NCBI GenBank assembly: GCA_000004985.1
Contig: GG739186.1
DNA from: Naegleria gruberi
Lineage: Eukaryota
Reading direction: 5' to 3' (one strand)
Length of the DNA stretch: 4,465 bases
The notes beneath the pieces were generated by a model, which worked only from the letters and a program-made list of their open reading frames with translations, did not search any database and was not told the origin of the DNA. Below, piece after piece: positions 1-4,465 of the stretch (position 1 is the stretch's first letter; each line of letters begins with the position of its first letter). The translations under genes and the position numbers were made by a program.

Positions 1-12
1 AGTATTTTGGAA

Positions 13-330
13 CTAGGTAGTATTACCAGAAATGAAAGTATAGGATGGTTCTTCTCCATCACTTGAACCTAGAGTATAGAATGAAAGGGAAGAGTTAGCA
101 ACCATAGTATTGGCATTATTATTCAAATCATAGTTGAGAGTTGTCAAACATTGACAAGAATCACCTGTGGTTGAACAAAAACCTCTACCATTACAAGAAT
201 CTGGACCTGTACATTCAAATGCATTAGTATTAGAAGCCAAAATGGACAAGATAACTAGGGTCACAAGCATACAAACAGTAACCTTACAGAGTTTTACTCT
301 GTTAGAGACCATACAGTAGTCAAGAGACAT
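13..330 (-). CDS. Small secreted cysteine-rich protein of 105 aa, single exon. Predicted signal peptide (MVSNRVKLCKVTVCMLVTLVILSILASNTNA) followed by an EGF-like Cys cluster CTGPDSCNGRGFCSTTGDSCQC and an N/S/T-rich tail with N-x-S/T sequons.
   Basis: ATG at 328-330 (read on the minus strand) preceded by an A-run (caaacaaaaaaATG). TAG stop at 13-15. Hydrophobic h-region followed by small residues (SNTNA|FE). Spacing C-x5-C-x5-C-x6-C-x-C is typical of EGF/laminin-type modules. Confidence 0.45.
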   Translation of the reverse strand: MSLDYCMVSNRVKLCKVTVCMLVTLVILSILASNTNAFECTGPDSCNGRGFCSTTGDSCQCLTTLNYDLNNNANTMVANSSLSFYTLGSSDGEEPSYTFISGNTT

Positions 331-1303
331 TTTTTTGTTTGAATTGTAGTAATAGCATCCAAAGTGACCTTTTTAACTTGTTTGTGAATTTTGTATCTCG
401 AGTATCGAATAAAGTTTTGTATGTTGTAAACTATTGCTTACTTGATGGTGATAGATGACATTAAGATACTACTAACATGAACTAATCTACTCGCGAATCT
501 TCCATTTATGGAATGCAATACAAAACTGTAAGAGAAATTGCTGATACAATATTATCCAAGGATATTTGTTTTGGAATTTAGAGAACCATTCTGGAATTTT
601 AATGTTCATAGTAATGCATCTCGTCTCCAATACACTTCAGTCGATAATTAGATTGAATGATAAATTGGTTAACAGATAGTGATTAAACTTCTTTTGAACC
701 AATTGCTCTTAATTGTTGATTCCTCGATGGTTTCAACAGCAATATTCGTTGAAAATGTAGCGTACGAAGAATAATCGTGATGGGAAGAGATTGCAGATAT
801 CACCAATTAGATGAACACGGCCACAATATTCAAAATGCATTATTTAAATTAAATATTGTGATGAAGAGATGCATCTGAGATTAATCTCTTGAATGTTGAT
901 GAGCAGTGAGACACTGCTTGTTAAAGTTGAACTCTCTCTTGATGACGATGATTGAATTGGATACAATAGACGAAGCCGCCATCTGGTGAAGTAAGTAAAA
1001 TAAAATTAATAATGATGAAAGTCTATTTAATGCATTGTTTTTTCTTGATTTTGAAAACGCAACGGTTTTTGGTAAATGCCCCGAATGAGTTGCTGTGGTA
1101 CCATTAATTGGTGCAAAATGACTTTATTTTTAATGGAGTTTGCTCTATAAATTTTCAATTTTGCTGACCACTTTTGGTCGTTTTTAAATTTTCATCGCTG
1201 TACAGATTAGGTGGCAAGGCTTAAATTTTAAAATTGACCAAAATTTGGTACCTAATTTTCAAAATTAAATTATTGGACCAAAGTTTTTTAATAAATTAAT
1301 AAG

Positions 1304-1309
1304 TTTATT
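1304..1309 (-). terminator. Candidate poly(A) signal AATAAA for the minus-strand gene ending at 1488.
   Basis: TTTATT on the plus strand reads AATAAA on the minus strand, about 180 nt downstream of the stop codon. AT-rich context means many chance matches. Confidence 0.25.
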
Positions 1310-1323
1310 ATTTCACAATGTCC

Positions 1324-1349
1324 TGACTTGGAGAAATTTCTCCAAGTCA
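1324..1349. repeat. Perfect 26-bp palindrome TGACTTGGAGAAA|TTTCTCCAAGTCA.
   Basis: Checked base by base: 13 complementary pairs around the centre at 1336/1337 and no spacer. It lies about 140 nt downstream of the 1488 stop codon and about 15 nt before a minus-strand AATAAA (1309-1304). Confidence 0.9.
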
Positions 1350-1487
1350 AGATTACATTCAAGATTTCAACAAAGGAGCATGATAACTCTGCATTTAAAT
1401 CCATTCCAGATGATAGGTATTACAATTATAGTACATCAACAAGTATCAGATTTCAACTATCTATTAAAGTAACTTACTAGAAGAAAA

Positions 1488-1689
1488 TCATCTCAATAGC
1501 ATTGCATGACATTTAAGTAAGGGTCTAACAATAAGCTTTTCATTGATATCCTTGACGAGCACAGCAGGACCAAGCACTTCACTAGGGGAAATGGAGTGGC
1601 TGTCATTGGCCAACACACCATTCCTAATAGGCCTCACATGAATGTAAAACTTGTCTTGCATTTCAAGGAACTTGACAATGACAGCAAAA
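1488..1689 (-). CDS. Terminal exon of a small gene, encoding an ATG12-like ubiquitin-like domain: SFAVIVKFLEMQDKFYIHVRPIRNGVLANDSHSISPSEVLGPAVLVKDINEKLIVRPLLKCHAMLLR*.
   Basis: Acceptor ...cattatAG at 1690-1691 (minus strand) after a pyrimidine/AT-rich tract. The open frame runs to a TGA at 1488-1490. Remembered ATG12 blocks are present: SFAMVILFLKRRL / KFANVIDFLRRQL (compare SFAVIVKFLEMQ), LFIYVN (FYIHV), SPDQEV (SPSEV) and KLVLHYCKSQAWG (KLIVRPLLKCHAM). Coding-region GC is much higher than the flanking AT-rich DNA. Confidence 0.4.
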
Positions 1690-1910
1690 CTATAATGATG
1701 AATTACTAGTATAATATTACAAAAAACATACCTAAATGTTATTGAGCATTTTGAATATTTCATAATAAACATTTTACCTCATTGTTTACATATGAATCAA
1801 ATACATTAAACTTACCTGAAATATGAATGAATTAATATCAATGAATACCAACTAATGAATTCCGTTATGTCAATTCTTGATGAATAAATTATAATGAATA
1901 GAAAACATAC

Positions 1911-2083
1911 CTATTGTTTGCGAGTTGAACAATGTTATTGGGGTGGAGAGTTTTCTCCATAACAAGAGCCATCCAACATGGTGTGAACGATCTTACCCTT
2001 TGAGTGTAAACACTGATACAGTTGAATGATACATTAAAGATATACGTACATGCTTGTTGATTAGGTCCAGCACTTTGGTCCAT
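1911..2083 (-). CDS. Putative first exon of the same gene: MDQSAGPNQQ...NIVQLANN, 57 codons plus 2 nt. It is joined to 1689 by a 221-nt GTATGT...TATAG intron at 1690-1910.
   Basis: Consensus donor GTATGT at 1910-1905 (minus strand). The phase-2 end (AAT AG) plus the T at 1689 gives AGT, keeping the frame. The ATG at 2081-2083 lacks the A-rich context seen at other starts here, and the exon begins 10 bp from a transposon-fragment boundary, so the true 5' structure is uncertain. Confidence 0.3.
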
Positions 2084-2092
2084 CTCCTTCTT

Positions 2093-2466
2093 GTAATGAA
2101 CAGTCTTGTTTAGACTTTCATCATTATCATGCTGATATGAAAATTAGGAATGGATTCAAAAGCTCGATCAAAACCTCCATTATCATCAAACAACTCACCG
2201 AGTGATGTCGAATTACTTCCTCTTCTTGCTGATCCATTATGAATTGCTCCTCATCATCTGATTCCGAGGATGAGAATGAAGCTCTCAATCAAATCATCCT
2301 CCATTAAATCTTCCTCATCAACTTATTCACTCCTTGTTGTTGTTTGATAAGGAATTTATTGCCTATCAATTTTTGATATATATTTTCAAACGTATGGAGC
2401 GTTCCTTTGTGTTGGTGTTTTCCCCATTTTTTTAGGCTTTGAAATAAGGCGCTAAGATCCACTCAC
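2093..2466 (-). mobile_element. Decayed 5'-terminal fragment (solo end) of the same En/Spm-like transposon: terminus, promoter, ATG and the start of exon 1, with indels and a premature stop (MGKTPTQRNAPYV*).
   Basis: Aligns with 3640-4081 at roughly 85% identity. This includes the shared terminus ...GATCCACTCAC (ending at 2466 here and 4081 in the long copy), the cctaaaaaaATGGGGAAA start (ATG at 2427, minus strand) and the ACTCACC (GTGAGT) site at 2193-2198. Confidence 0.8.
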
Positions 2467-2713
2467 TCATACTGATGATCGCAATGAGGTAGATGAAGAT
2501 GGATCGAATAAGAAGCTTATTGATGTATCATCACCTTATGATGATAGCAGTCGGGTGACAGCTGTTTATGTGTAAATAACATCATTATTACTATTCATCT
2601 ATTGTTAGTGTTAATATACTCAATTCATATCCATTCATATCATATGATTTCATAGCTTGATAACCATTATTAAGAACAGTGTGGTCCACATTTTTGCTCT
2701 AGATTTAAAATTA

Positions 2714-2763: not shown

Positions 2764-3744
2764 GGCCGCTGCTTTGGAATCTTGTTCTTCACGAGGAGTA
2801 CACTTGTATTGCTTGTTTGTAATAGTGAAAACCCATCTACGTTGAATACTGTGACCACTATTTAAACAAAATCCACAACCAAATAAACCATTAAAAGCAC
2901 TCATGCAATATGCAATAGCCTTTGCTGGCAAATCACATACTATTGAACAAAAGTTCACAAACCATGAACCATTATTGATAATCACTTCATTATTCTCCAT
3001 ACTCTTGACGTCTTGTACAAAATAGTCGAGAAAGACATTTCCTGGTTTTGTCTTTCCGTACCAAAGACCAACCATAAAGAGATTTTCCGGATTATATCTA
3101 ACCTCTGGTGGCAAGTTTTGAACAACAACATAAATAGGCCACATGCTCCATTTAGAGGATGAAAAAGGACTCGCTCCATCCCAATTCACCTGCAAAAAGA
3201 TTTGATTTGAATTGCCATGAAGTTGAATCTTATCCTTAATAACAGAACCATCGAATACGTCCATAATATTATCAGTATCATTCCGTCTAGTTTTGTAATA
3301 TTCTAATTGCTCACAATAGATAGGATCTTTACATCTTTCTTCAAATTGCTCCCGAAGACTATGATAAAGAAAGTGTGTTGTATTTTTCCTTCCACATGAA
3401 GAGCATGTTGAATTATTGCAACAACATTCACAATGTTTACAATAATATACTCGTTGCATTGAGTCCATGAATGGAATAAATTTGAAAAGCTGTGTTCTTG
3501 TCTTTGGAATGATATTATCTTGAGGGAGTAGTAAATTGAGTGTTTTGAGTAGAATGTCAATCTTACTAGTACCGATTTTCATTGTAATTATGAGAAAGAG
3601 AATAACGGTGATAAATGAACCCAAACTCAATGAAGCATCATTATGAATAGGCTTGTTTAGACTTTCATCATTATCAACATGAAAATTAGGAATGGTTTCA
3701 AAAGCTTGATCAAAGCCTCCAATATCATCAAACACACTCACCAA
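2764..3744 (-). CDS. Transposase core (Transposase_21 / plant TNP2-like). The open frame continues into the gap, so the C-terminal part is missing.
   Basis: LLPQDNIIPK...YYCKHCECCCNNSTCSSCGRK (about 3388-3441) matches the TNP2 pattern LPxGNxLPK...C..C......C..CG..R. IFLQVNWDGASPFSSSKWSMWPIYVVVQNLPPEVRYNPENLFMVGLWYGKTKPGN (about 3040-3198) matches DG..PF...S.WP.....NLPP..R....FL...IPGP..P. VCDLPAKAIAYCMSAFNGLFGCGFC matches the I.DFPA...LSGW...G..ACP.C block. The frame has no stop for 327 codons. The ORF track's 'M' at 3744 is a TTG, not ATG. Confidence 0.85.
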
Positions 3745-4033
3745 TAGATGCCGATCTGTTAAGATTTGCTTCTTCTTCCTCTTCTAGTTGATCCATTATG
3801 AATTCATCCTCATCATCTGATTCCGAGGTGTTATCAGAACCAATCTCGCTCTCAATCAAATCATCATCCACCATTAAATCTTCCTCATCTACTTCTGTTC
3901 TGAATTCAACTTCATCTTCATCACTTGTAGTTGTTGTTTGATAAAGAATTTCTTGCCCTAATTTTTCAGCCTTTCGTTTTGATCGATATTTTCGAACGTA
4001 TTGAGCGTTCTTTTGTGTTGGTATTTTCCCCAT
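3728..4033 (-). CDS. N-terminal exon/ORF of the transposon protein (101 aa). It has a basic NLS-like stretch RKYRSKRKAEK followed by a strongly acidic D/E/S-rich region.
   Basis: ATG at 4031-4033 (minus strand) in the context cctaaaaaaATGGGG. The ORF ends at a TGA at 3728-3730, just after a consensus GTGAGT at 3741-3736. It is out of frame (+1) with the transposase core ORF. Confidence 0.6.
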   Translation of the reverse strand: MGKIPTQKNAQYVRKYRSKRKAEKLGQEILYQTTTTSDEDEVEFRTEVDEEDLMVDDDLIESEIGSDNTSESDDEDEFIMDQLEEEEEANLNRSASIGECV

Positions 4034-4117
4034 TTTTTTAGGCTTTGAAATAAGGCGCTAAATATTACAAGATCCACTCACAATAGTAACAAATTGATCC
4101 AATAATAGCCAAAAAAA

Positions 4118-4465
4118 ATGTCAAAACTCAATTCGCAAGAAAGTGATAACTCTGAATCATCTTCACCAAATATCAAGCCTTCACAAAATATCACTACAAC
4201 CAAAAAGAAGAAACAAACATCTACTAGAAAGAAGCCAGCATCATCAAGTGAGTCTTCATCAACAACAAAATCGCCAACAAAGGCTTCATCAACCTCACCA
4301 AAAAAATCACCACCAAAGGCTTCAAAAGATGTCAACACTGTACCAAAAGAGTCTTCCTCCTCTTCTTCTTCTTCTACTTCTTCTGGAGGTGTGAAAAGAA
4401 AGCAAGATGATTCTAGTAGAATTGTTAAACTTCTAAAACTTACAAAAACTAACAAGACACGTCTT
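4118..4465 (+). CDS. 5' part (116 codons, no stop in the window) of a Ser/Thr/Lys-rich basic low-complexity protein. It carries SPKK/SPxK minor-groove-type motifs (KSPTKASSTSPKKSPPKAS) and a poly-Ser run.
   Basis: ATG at 4118 in the context gccaaaaaaaATGTCA. The frame stays open to the window edge. Codons are strongly A/T-ending (TCA, CCA, ACA, AAA). It is not in the supplied ORF track because it has no stop in the window. Low complexity limits confidence. Confidence 0.45.
   Translation, partial: MSKLNSQESDNSESSSPNIKPSQNITTTKKKKQTSTRKKPASSSESSSTTKSPTKASSTSPKKSPPKASKDVNTVPKESSSSSSSSTSSGGVKRKQDDSSRIVKLLKLTKTNKTRL

What the first reader, a model, noticed from the sequence alone, without database searches (positions are those of the whole stretch)
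2764..4081. En/Spm-CACTA-superfamily (Transposase_21) DNA transposon in an AT-rich protist-like genome
The minus-strand ORF carries three blocks I recognise from plant CACTA TNP2/TnpD transposases, in the same order. They are LPxGNxxPK...C..C......C..CGxxRK, then L...DGxxPFxxxxxSxWPxxxxxxNLPPxxRxxxxxxFxxGxxxGxxxP, then the C....PA.......G..GC..C block. If the host is a dictyostelid-like or other AT-rich protist, CACTA-type elements are not among the classic repeat families I know for that group. Either way it is a strong transposon call.
Basis: partly seen in the sequence, partly recalled or inferred. Interest (0 to 1): 0.6.

Follow-up and report, generated by a model that had tools for sequence, protein, structure and literature searches.

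The report
Decayed CACTA-type transposon in Naegleria
This stretch is a broken copy of the transposase gene of a CACTA/EnSpm-type "cut-and-paste" jumping gene in the amoeboflagellate Naegleria gruberi; it is a real transposon relic of a known superfamily, not a new kind of element.

Summary
The minus-strand ORF 2764..3744 (327 codons) matches Pfam Transposase_21 above its curated threshold. All 92 close relatives scanned match it too. A whole-library HMMER search found 6,252 relatives.

The window is an entire 4,465-bp scaffold of Naegleria gruberi (XP_002668240.1). The host is therefore a heterolobosean, not a dictyostelid.

The copy is dead as assembled:
- A 1-nt insertion near 3735 separates the acidic N-terminus (ATG 4033) from the core.
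- A 50-N assembly gap cuts the core after the second catalytic Asp and the C(2)C motif.
- The H(3)H motif and the catalytic Glu are not in the window.

A second, internally deleted copy lies at 1488..2467. It is 88.6% identical to the first copy and keeps only the N- and C-terminal ends of the gene.

Four relatives carry a divergent ~420-460-aa second gene whose C-terminus has a BEN-like fold. The + strand ORF starting at 4118 sits in the same position. Termini and target-site duplications were not resolved.

CMC-EnSpm repeats are already reported in N. lovaniensis. This is a new member of a known kind, of low to moderate interest. One relative lies beside a Tet/JBP-like gene, which is a lead worth following.

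The parts
2764..3744 (-). Copy A: N-terminal half of the transposase core (327 codons). It holds an alpha-helical region, a CxxC...CxxC motif, the first and second catalytic Asp and the C(2)C motif. It is cut by the assembly gap.
   Evidence: Pfam PF02992 34.2 bits. Family profile positions 53-373 of 787, E 3e-96. 47-50% identity to P0005. AF2 model pLDDT 73.7, with RAG1 and Transib as top PDB folds.
3728..4033 (-). Copy A: N-terminal basic/acidic region of the transposase (ATG at 4033). It is in a different frame from the core ORF.
   Evidence: ORF list. Homolog P0003 reads through the junction in one frame.
3733..3737 (-). Frameshift: one extra nucleotide in copy A. Copy A reads GGTGAGTGTGTTTG. 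Copy B reads GGTGAGT-TGTTTG, which encodes LGELFDD like the homolog.
   Evidence: Copy A/B DNA alignment. P0003 reads SGELFDEVGG.
3394..3441 (-). CxxC-x8-CxxC motif (C102, C105, C114, C117). Presumed zinc-binding module upstream of the catalytic core.
   Evidence: C114 is invariant and C102/C105/C117 are >=90% conserved among 60-88 relatives. Coordinates. Zinc binding is inferred.
3178..3180 (-). D189, the first catalytic Asp (in NWDGASPF).
   Evidence: Invariant column in alignments A6, A8 and A9. Its catalytic role is inferred from the CMC/RAG1 DDE signature (PMC12730594).
2932..2934 (-). D271, the second catalytic Asp (in VCDLPAK).
   Evidence: Invariant in A8 and A9. Coordinates.
2866..2877 (-). 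C(2)C motif (C290, C293 in GCGFC). This is the first half of the C2H2 zinc site that defines CMC/Transib/RAG1 cores.
   Evidence: C290 and C293 are invariant or nearly invariant. Motif definition from PMC12730594.
2714..2763 (.). Assembly gap of 50 N. The remainder of copy A (D-x-MH, H(3)H, catalytic Glu, C-terminal domain) is either hidden here or absent.
   Evidence: No other part of the window matches profile positions 374-787.
4034..4117 (.). 84-nt spacer between the divergent start codons of the transposase and the + strand ORF. Presumed bidirectional promoter. Homology between copy A and copy B ends at 4081.
   Evidence: Relatives have a ~135-146-nt spacer in the same layout.
4118..4465 (+). 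First 116 codons of a Ser/Lys-rich ORF that runs off the scaffold. Probably the N-terminus of the element's second gene (ORF2).
   Evidence: The same divergent position as ORF2 in L001, L015-17 and L018. No sequence homology is detectable with the ORF2 profile, so the assignment is positional only.
2096..2467 (-). Copy B, 5' part: transposase 5' leader and N-terminal region. 88.6% identical to copy A 3643-4081, with nine indels, most of them not a multiple of three.
1488..2095 (-). Copy B, 3' part, joined directly to the N-terminal region (internal deletion). The terminal ORF 1488..1772 is the C-terminal domain of the transposase, ending ...LLKCHAMLLR*. A probable intron lies at about 1693-1913.
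   Evidence: tblastn to L015 4559-4744, E 7e-7, with both ending at the stop codon. The NCBI model splices here. The 1889-2095 part has no detectable homolog.
1050..1300 (.). Cluster of short palindromic motifs: TTTTGCTGACCACTTTTGGTC at 1158-1180, GACCAAAATTTGGTACC at 1238-1254 and GGACCAAAG at 1274-1282. Candidate subterminal repeats of copy B's 3' end.
   Evidence: The pattern TTGCKKCCMASTTTY, derived from the flanks of L001 and L015, hits 1161-1175 with 1 mismatch (0.01 expected). The best blastn hits of window 1-1488 fall in the ORF2-distal flanks of L018 (E 0.006) and L001. The function is inferred.
2468..2713 (.). Sequence between copy B and the gap. Origin unknown; it may be flank or a rearranged element end.
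   Evidence: No similarity above shuffled controls to 4082-4465 or to 1-1488. No profile hits.

Best explanation
The region is a dead copy of the transposase gene of a cut-and-paste DNA transposon. The transposon belongs to the CMC superfamily (CACTA/EnSpm-Mirage-Chapaev), on the CACTA/EnSpm-Mirage side, and sits in the genome of Naegleria gruberi.

How the intact protein would work. This is inferred from relatives and from the RAG1/Transib fold match.
- The intact protein would be about 800 aa.
- It would start with a basic/acidic N-terminus and a CxxC...CxxC module.
- An RNase H-like DDE core would follow, interrupted by a C2H2 zinc-binding insertion.
- It would bind the element ends, cut them and insert the element elsewhere.

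What the window holds.
- Copy A has only the first half of that protein (D189, D271 and C(2)C).
- A 1-nt frameshift detaches copy A from its N-terminus, and an assembly gap truncates it.
- A second, internally deleted copy (copy B) keeps only the two ends of the gene. This is the usual product of abortive gap repair in DNA transposons.

The element probably also carries a second gene, ORF2, transcribed divergently from the transposase. In relatives ORF2 has a coiled coil and a BEN-like C-terminal fold. ORF2 may be the protein that recognises the short palindromic repeats near the element ends, much as TnpA does in En/Spm. That step is inference.
For: Identity of the host and the protein:
- Pfam PF02992 scores above its gathering threshold.
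- All 32 and all 60 relatives scanned match PF02992.
- phmmer found 6,252 relatives.
- The host is N. gruberi, at 99% identity to XP_002668240.1 on a 4,465-bp contig.

Catalytic features:
- D189, D271 and C293 are invariant, and C290 is invariant or >=90% conserved.
- Relatives continue with IDPMH, NFHHLLHL and FPFES.
- The AF2 model (pLDDT 73.7) finds only RAG1 and HzTransib in the PDB at E<5e-3. This agrees with the published CMC-Transib-RAG1 relationship (PMC12730594).

Decay, and behaviour as a repeat:
- The frameshift is visible in the copy A/B alignment.
- Only profile positions 53-373 of 787 are present in the window.
- Copy B is 88.6% identical to copy A with nine indels.
- Copy B's terminal ORF matches the C-terminal ORF of L015, E 7e-7.
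- An independent deletion derivative exists in L002, covering profile positions 29-186 and then 499-555.

Second gene and end motifs:
- ORF2 lies divergent from the transposase in L001, L015-17 and L018. L018 is N. gruberi DNA, 461/462 identical to XP_002682477.1.
- ORF2's top five fold matches are BEN-DNA complexes.
- The shared flank motif hits the window where 0.01 hits are expected.

Prior report:
- CMC-EnSpm repeats are already listed for N. lovaniensis (PMC6125883).
Against: - No terminal inverted repeats, CACTA termini or target-site duplications were found in the window or in L015.
- The Pfam score is modest (34.2 bits), and the Mirage profile scores nearly as well across relatives. 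Placement inside CMC is therefore not resolved.
- The + strand ORF at 4118 shows no detectable sequence homology to ORF2.
- The ORF2 model is poor (mean pLDDT 47). Neither Pfam nor PDB sequence searches find a BEN domain.
- The flank motifs could be host regulatory signals rather than transposon ends.
- Copy number in the genome was not measured.
Confidence: 0.85

Rival explanations
1. The element is intact and possibly active. On this view the missing half of the transposase lies inside the unsized assembly gap and the frameshift is a sequencing error in a low-coverage scaffold.
For: The 327-codon core ORF has no internal stops. The gap is a 50-N placeholder of unknown true size. Only one frameshift separates the N-terminus from the core.
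Against: The sequence on the far side of the gap (2468-2713) has no transposase similarity. The neighbouring copy B is clearly degenerate, and the two copies differ by 11%, which indicates old insertions. The related copy L001 also carries an in-frame stop.
Confidence: 0.08
2. It is a domesticated, transposase-derived host gene (or a host gene pair with ORF2), not a mobile element.
For: The ORF2-transposase pairing is conserved between copies that share only 41-50% protein identity. No termini or target-site duplications were found.
Against: The window copy has a frameshift, a truncation and a deletion derivative. A relative has an independent deletion derivative, and L001 has a stop codon. 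N. gruberi holds at least two divergent families. The window is a tiny, repeat-only scaffold. The flanking genes differ in every locus.
Confidence: 0.04
3. It belongs to a different transposase group (Chapaev, Transib, Plavaka, KDZ, or a separate unnamed lineage) and not to CACTA/EnSpm proper.
For: The Mirage profile DUF1258 scores almost as well as Transposase_21 across relatives, hitting 58 of 60 with an equal best E-value. The closest solved folds are RAG1 and Transib. One relative weakly hits Plavaka. No CACTA termini were seen.
Against: Only Transposase_21 passes its curated threshold for the window protein. Chapaev/DUF1280, KDZ, Plavaka and RAG1 families are not among the hits reported at E<=1. 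RepeatModeler labelled the Naegleria repeats CMC-EnSpm. The fold match to RAG1/Transib is weak (TM 0.24-0.31) and is expected for any CMC member.
Confidence: 0.1

Closest known systems
CACTA / En/Spm (EnSpm) transposons: TnpD/TNP2 transposases, Pfam Transposase_21 (PF02992)
   Same: - Same order of blocks: LPxxNxxPK, then CxxC...CxxC, then WDG..PF (first Asp), NLPP..R, CDxPA (second Asp) and GCxxC.
- The Pfam match is above threshold.
- Relatives carry the H(3)H and FxFE parts, and some hit DUF4218.
- There are internal-deletion derivatives and a candidate second gene.
   Different: - Only 34 bits to the plant-dominated profile.
- No hit to the plant-type Transpos_assoc or DUF4216 domains.
- The second gene is divergently transcribed and BEN-like. 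It is not a TnpA produced by alternative splicing.
- CACTA termini and a 3-bp target-site duplication were not demonstrated.
- The host is a heterolobosean.
Mirage elements of Caenorhabditis (Pfam DUF1258, PF06869; assignment from PMC3985635)
   Same: DUF1258 aligns over aa 100-297, which includes the CxxC block. It hits 58 of 60 nearest relatives as strongly as Transposase_21.
   Different: The window protein scores 26.3 bits, below the gathering score of 33.1. The host range is different.
Transib transposase and RAG1 (solved structures 6pqn/6pqx, 6dbv/6dbo)
   Same: They are the only significant fold matches for the model (probability 0.96-1.0). They share the DDE core with a C(2)C...H(3-4)H zinc site (PMC12730594).
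   Different: Sequence identity is 9-13% and TM-scores are 0.24-0.31. No Pfam match was found. This is superfamily-level kinship only.
CMC-EnSpm repeats annotated in Naegleria lovaniensis (PMC6125883, Table 3)
   Same: Same genus and same repeat class. The table lists 38 copies covering 0.23% of the genome.
   Different: That paper gives only a RepeatModeler label. It gives no sequence, gene structure or termini, so identity with this family was not tested.
TET/JBP-carrying EnSpm, Plavaka and KDZ transposons of fungi (PMC12730594)
   Same: The closest full-length relative (L015) has a Tet/JBP-like gene 258 nt from ORF2.
   Different: The Tet-like gene is seen in one contig only and was not shown to lie inside the element. 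It is absent from the L001 and L018 flanks and is not in the window.

Membership tests
CMC superfamily, CACTA/EnSpm branch | Transposase with a Pfam Transposase_21 (PF02992) match above the curated threshold | tested here: met
   34.2 bits against a gathering score of 28.6, E 1.9e-8, aa 178-297. All 92 relatives scanned also match.
CMC superfamily, CACTA/EnSpm branch | Complete DDE catalytic triad | tested here: not met
   D189 and D271 are present and invariant. The Glu-bearing region (profile positions 374-787) is absent from the window. Relatives have it (FPFES in P0005). This copy is incomplete, although the family has the feature.
CMC superfamily, CACTA/EnSpm branch | [quoted passage not shown] | tested here: inconclusive
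   C290-x2-C293 is present. H(3)H is not in the window but is present in relatives (NFHHLLHL in P0005, NVHHLVHL in L002).
CMC superfamily, CACTA/EnSpm branch | Terminal inverted repeats starting 5'-CAC(TA)... | tested here: inconclusive
   The window has no convincing inverted repeat pair. One element end lies beyond the scaffold. L015 has only a 21-nt inverted pair that does not start with CAC.
CMC superfamily, CACTA/EnSpm branch | 2-3-bp target-site duplication | not testable with these tools
   This needs defined ends or an empty site.
CMC superfamily, CACTA/EnSpm branch | Subterminal short repeats in both orientations | tested here: inconclusive
   A motif shared with the flanks of L001, L015 and L018 occurs at 1161-1175 (0.01 expected) and nearby. 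Its position relative to true ends is unknown.
Mirage (Pfam DUF1258) | PF06869 match above the curated threshold | tested here: not met
   26.3 bits against a gathering score of 33.1.
Chapaev (Pfam DUF1280, per PMC3985635) | PF06918 match | tested here: not met
   Not among the hits reported at E<=1 for the window protein, nor at E<=0.001 among 92 relatives.
KDZ (Kyakuja-Dileera-Zisupton) and Plavaka | Match to the KDZ or Plavaka transposase profiles | tested here: not met
   No hit for the window protein. One of 60 relatives hits Plavaka weakly (E 6.5e-4) and none hits KDZ.
BEN-domain DNA-binding proteins (for ORF2 of relatives) | BEN fold or sequence profile | tested here: inconclusive
   The top five Foldseek hits are BEN-DNA complexes (probability 0.90-1.0, target TM 0.58-0.66), but E is 0.017-0.2 and the model has mean pLDDT 47. 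No Pfam or PDB sequence hit was found.

The most novel reading that the evidence does not exclude
Naegleria-type amoebae may carry their own lineage of CMC transposons built from two divergent genes: the transposase, and a coiled-coil protein with a BEN-like DNA-binding domain that reads palindromic subterminal repeats. At least some members may carry or travel with Tet/JBP-like 5-methylpyrimidine dioxygenase genes, as TET-positive transposons do in fungi. If so, the multiple Tet-like genes of Naegleria could have been spread by, or serve, these transposons.
Probability: 0.12. Interest if true: 0.6.

Novelty: new member of a known kind. Interest (0 to 1): 0.25.

Why it matters
The main value is better annotation.
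- It shows that XP_002668240.1 is a chimeric gene model built over two decayed transposon copies.
- It adds a documented CMC/EnSpm family to the sparse transposon catalogue of Heterolobosea.
- It defines the family's probable two-gene layout.

The wider interest lies in two leads from relatives: an accessory protein with a BEN-like fold, and a Tet/JBP-like gene next to the closest full-length relative. If these hold up in the full N. gruberi genome, they would link Naegleria's well-studied Tet-like enzymes to transposon biology. So far that link has been described only in fungi.

Tried and rejected
- **Intron at the N-terminus/core junction (GTGAGT at about 3736-3742).** Rejected. Copy B and homolog P0003 read straight through, so it is a 1-nt frameshift.
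- **2468-2713 as the far end of ORF2 or the left terminus of copy B.** No similarity above shuffled controls to 4082-4465 or to 1-1488, and no profile hit.
- **The 1889-2095 part of copy B as the Glu-bearing region.** No detectable similarity to P0005 or to the 88-sequence profile.
- **Terminal inverted repeats.** None convincing in the window or in L015.
- **Fetching other N. gruberi copies.** XP_002682477.1 and the ORF at 13-330 are not in the contig index. The metagenome scan returned only relatives at 28-37% identity.
- **Viral origin.** No relative found in IMG/VR.
- **Pfam or PDB sequence hits for ORF2 and for the copy B C-terminal domain.** None.
- **Rfam families.** None at gathering thresholds.
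- **ORF2 homologs next to the distant metagenome relatives L004-L014.** None.
- **Yuan and Wessler 2011.** The paper could not be retrieved.

Full report
**What is in the sequence**

The window has 33.6% G+C and a run of 50 N at 2714-2763. On the minus strand an ORF of 327 codons runs from 3744 down to the gap edge at 2764. A second ORF (4033..3728, ATG at 4033) lies just upstream in another frame.

- LLPQDNIIPKT...YYCKHCECCCNNSTCSSCGRKN
- LQVNWDGASPFSSSKWSMWPIYVVVQNLPPEVRYNPENLFMVGLWYGKTKP
- VCDLPAKAIAYCMSAFNGLFGCGFC

**Is it more than chance, and what family is it?**

hmmscan against Pfam gives Transposase_21 (PF02992) at E 1.9e-8 and 34.2 bits, above the gathering score of 28.6. The match covers aa 178-297. 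DUF1258 (PF06869) scores 26.3 bits, below its cut-off of 33.1. Nothing else is reported at E<=1.

Majorek et al. (PMC3985635) equate Transposase_21 with CACTA/En-Spm, DUF1258 with Mirage, and DUF1280 with Chapaev. The protein therefore sits on the CACTA-Mirage side of the CMC superfamily and not with Chapaev.

A full HMMER scan of 1.84 billion representative proteins found 6,252 relatives at E<=1e-3 and 1,579 at E<=1e-10. Every one of the 32 and 60 relatives I scanned matches PF02992. Most also match DUF1258, a few match DUF4218, one weakly matches Plavaka and none matches KDZ.

**Host**

The best database hit is XP_002668240.1, "predicted protein, partial [Naegleria gruberi]". It is 99% identical and sits on a contig of exactly 4,465 bp. 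The window is therefore a whole small scaffold of N. gruberi, a heterolobosean, and not a dictyostelid.

That gene model is a chimera. It strings together the antisense of the + strand ORF at 4118-4465, the transposase N-terminus, part of the core and exons of the second copy. It splices across the gap to do so.

**State of copy A (2764-4081)**

Copy B and homolog P0003 both read ...(S/L)GELFD(D/E)... in a single frame. Copy A has one extra base at about 3735 (GGTGAGTGTGTTTG against GGTGAGT-TGTTTG). This disconnects the N-terminal 100 residues from the core. It is a frameshift, not an intron.

A profile of 88 relatives (787 positions) matches the window only over positions 53-373, at E 3e-96. 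The second half of the core is absent. In relatives that half carries IDPMH, the H(3)H motif (NFHHLLHL) and the Glu of FPFES.

Conserved residues present in the window are:
- C102, C105, C114 and C117 (a CxxC-x8-CxxC module)
- D189
- D271
- C290 and C293

According to Kojima 2025 (PMC12730594), a C(2)C and an H(3-4)H motif between the second Asp and the Glu define the EnSpm-Mirage-Chapaev-Transib-RAG1 group.

An AlphaFold model of the 327 residues (pLDDT 73.7) finds only RAG1 and Helicoverpa Transib transposase in the PDB at E<5e-3 (probability 0.96-1.0, TM 0.24-0.31). That fits the superfamily-level kinship and supports an RNase H-like DDE mechanism. Which residues are catalytic is inferred from these alignments.

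**Copy B (1488-2467)**

Segment 2096-2467 is 88.6% identical to 3643-4081 and has nine indels, most of them frame-breaking. At 2096 the homology jumps.

The sequence that follows ends in an ORF (1488..1772) whose last 63 residues match the ORF that follows the transposase in the closest full-length relative, L015. The tblastn E-value is 7e-7, and both end ...LKCH[AS][ML]LLR and then a stop.

Copy B is therefore an internally deleted derivative that keeps the 5' and 3' ends of the gene. This is the usual form of non-autonomous DNA transposons. An independent derivative of the same kind is seen in L002, which covers profile positions 29-186 and then 499-555. Segment 1889-2095 and the flank 2468-2713 have no detectable relatives.

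**A second gene**

In L001, L015/16/17 and L018, a gene of 420-462 aa lies divergent from the transposase, with roughly 135-146 nt between the start codons. L018 is N. gruberi DNA. Its ORF2 is 461/462 identical to XP_002682477.1 (NAEGRDRAFT_62315) on a 941-kb scaffold. Its transposase is only 41% identical to the one in the window. N. gruberi therefore holds at least two families.

The window has the same layout. A Ser/Lys-rich ORF starts at 4118 on the + strand, 84 nt from the transposase ATG, and runs off the scaffold. The ORF2 profile does not detect these 116 low-complexity residues, so the assignment rests on position alone.

ORF2 has no Pfam or PDB sequence match. Its model is poor (mean pLDDT 47, C-terminal part 60-83). 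Even so, the top five fold matches are all BEN domains bound to DNA: Insv, BEND6 and Bsg25A, at probability 0.90-1.0, target TM 0.58-0.66 and E 0.017-0.2. This is a lead, not a result. ORF2 is not found next to more distant relatives.

**Ends**

I could not define termini or target-site duplications. The ORF2 side runs off the scaffold, and no inverted repeat pair in the window or in L015 looks like CACTA termini.

A short, partly palindromic motif recurs in the flanks beyond ORF2 in L001, L015 and L018, and beyond the transposase in L015. Its form is TTGC-KK-CCMAS-TTTY, often continued as ...CCAACTTTCCGAAAGTTGG.

The pattern was derived from L001 and L015. It hits the window once, at 1161-1175, which is 313 nt past the stop codon of copy B. 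Only 0.01 hits are expected by chance. The best blastn matches of window 1-1488 to related loci fall in those same flanks.

These may be subterminal binding sites. They could equally be host regulatory motifs.

**Known or new?**

RepeatModeler already labelled 38 repeats (0.23% of the genome) of N. lovaniensis as CMC-EnSpm (PMC6125883). PF02992 is pre-computed on the N. gruberi protein.

I found no description of this family's structure in the searchable literature. Repbase was not available. I rate it a new member of a known kind.

**A side observation**

The closest full-length relative (L015, a metagenome contig) has the 3' part of a Tet/JBP-like dioxygenase gene convergent with ORF2 and 258 nt away. 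It scores 31.7 bits against PF12851, below the gathering score of 34.9, and the gene is cut by the contig end. Its best PDB sequence match is the Naegleria Tet-like dioxygenase 4lt5/5cg8, at E about 5e-10.

It is not present beside ORF2 in L001 or L018. Whether it lies inside the element is unknown. Fungal EnSpm, Plavaka and KDZ transposons carry such genes (PMC12730594). I found no report of this for Naegleria.

**Verdict**

Interest is low to moderate.

Noticed in passing
window 1488-2467 (minus strand): A second, internally deleted and degenerate copy of the same element (88.6% identity, nine indels). It keeps only the 5' leader and N-terminus plus the C-terminal domain of the transposase.
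   Followed up: yes
window 4118-4465 (+): A Ser/Lys-rich ORF that starts 84 nt from the transposase ATG, divergent from it, and runs off the scaffold. It is in the same position as the conserved ORF2 of relatives, but no sequence homology is detectable. The NCBI model uses its antisense strand as an exon.
   Followed up: partly
whole window (XP_002668240.1 / EFC35496.1): The deposited 444-aa gene model is a chimera. It is spliced across the 50-N gap and across both transposon copies, so it does not represent a real protein.
   Followed up: yes
L015 1-591 (+); also L016/L017 1-306: The 3' part of a Tet/JBP-like dioxygenase gene lies convergent with ORF2 of the closest full-length relative, 258 nt away. 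It scores 31.7 bits against PF12851. Its best PDB sequence match is Naegleria Tet-like dioxygenase 4lt5, E 5.6e-10. This echoes the TET-carrying transposons of fungi.
   Followed up: partly
L018 862-2250 (-) = XP_002682477.1 NAEGRDRAFT_62315; L015 849-2228 (-); L001 525-1787 (-): The conserved divergent ORF2 has a central coiled coil. Its C-terminal ~110 aa have BEN domain-DNA complexes as their best fold matches. The model confidence is low.
   Followed up: partly
window 1050-1300 and 2680-2705; L001 200-350; L015 748-830 and 6328-6560; L018 645-815: Short palindromic motifs of the type TTTTGCTNCCAACTTTYSRAAAG recur in the non-coding flanks of all family members. They are candidate subterminal repeats, but a host regulatory motif is not excluded.
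   Followed up: partly
window 1006-1025 vs 3658-3677 and 2111-2127: A 17-20-nt inverted match (95-100%) to the sequence encoding DNDESLN. It lies exactly at the deletion breakpoint of copy B. Unexplained.
   Followed up: no
window 4031-4044 and 4107-4120: A 14-nt inverted repeat covers both divergent start codons (AGCCTAAAAAAATG / AGCCAAAAAAAATG). It is probably a shared A-rich start context. A similar context is seen at the ORF2 start in L018.
   Followed up: no
window 13-330 (-): A 105-codon ORF with a signal-peptide-like N-terminus and a Cys-rich EGF-like stretch (Pfam EGF hits only at E 0.05-0.12). It is possibly a host gene fragment at the scaffold edge.
   Followed up: no
L002 1-1031: The closest relative by identity (63%) is itself an internal-deletion derivative. 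It fuses the first ~250 aa to the H(3)H region (NVHHLVHL).
   Followed up: yes
P0168 (NCBI, 'MAG: hypothetical protein [Candidatus Thiodiazotropha sp.]'): A Transposase_21 + DUF4218 protein filed under a bacterial metagenome-assembled genome. It is probably eukaryotic (host) contamination of the bin.
   Followed up: no
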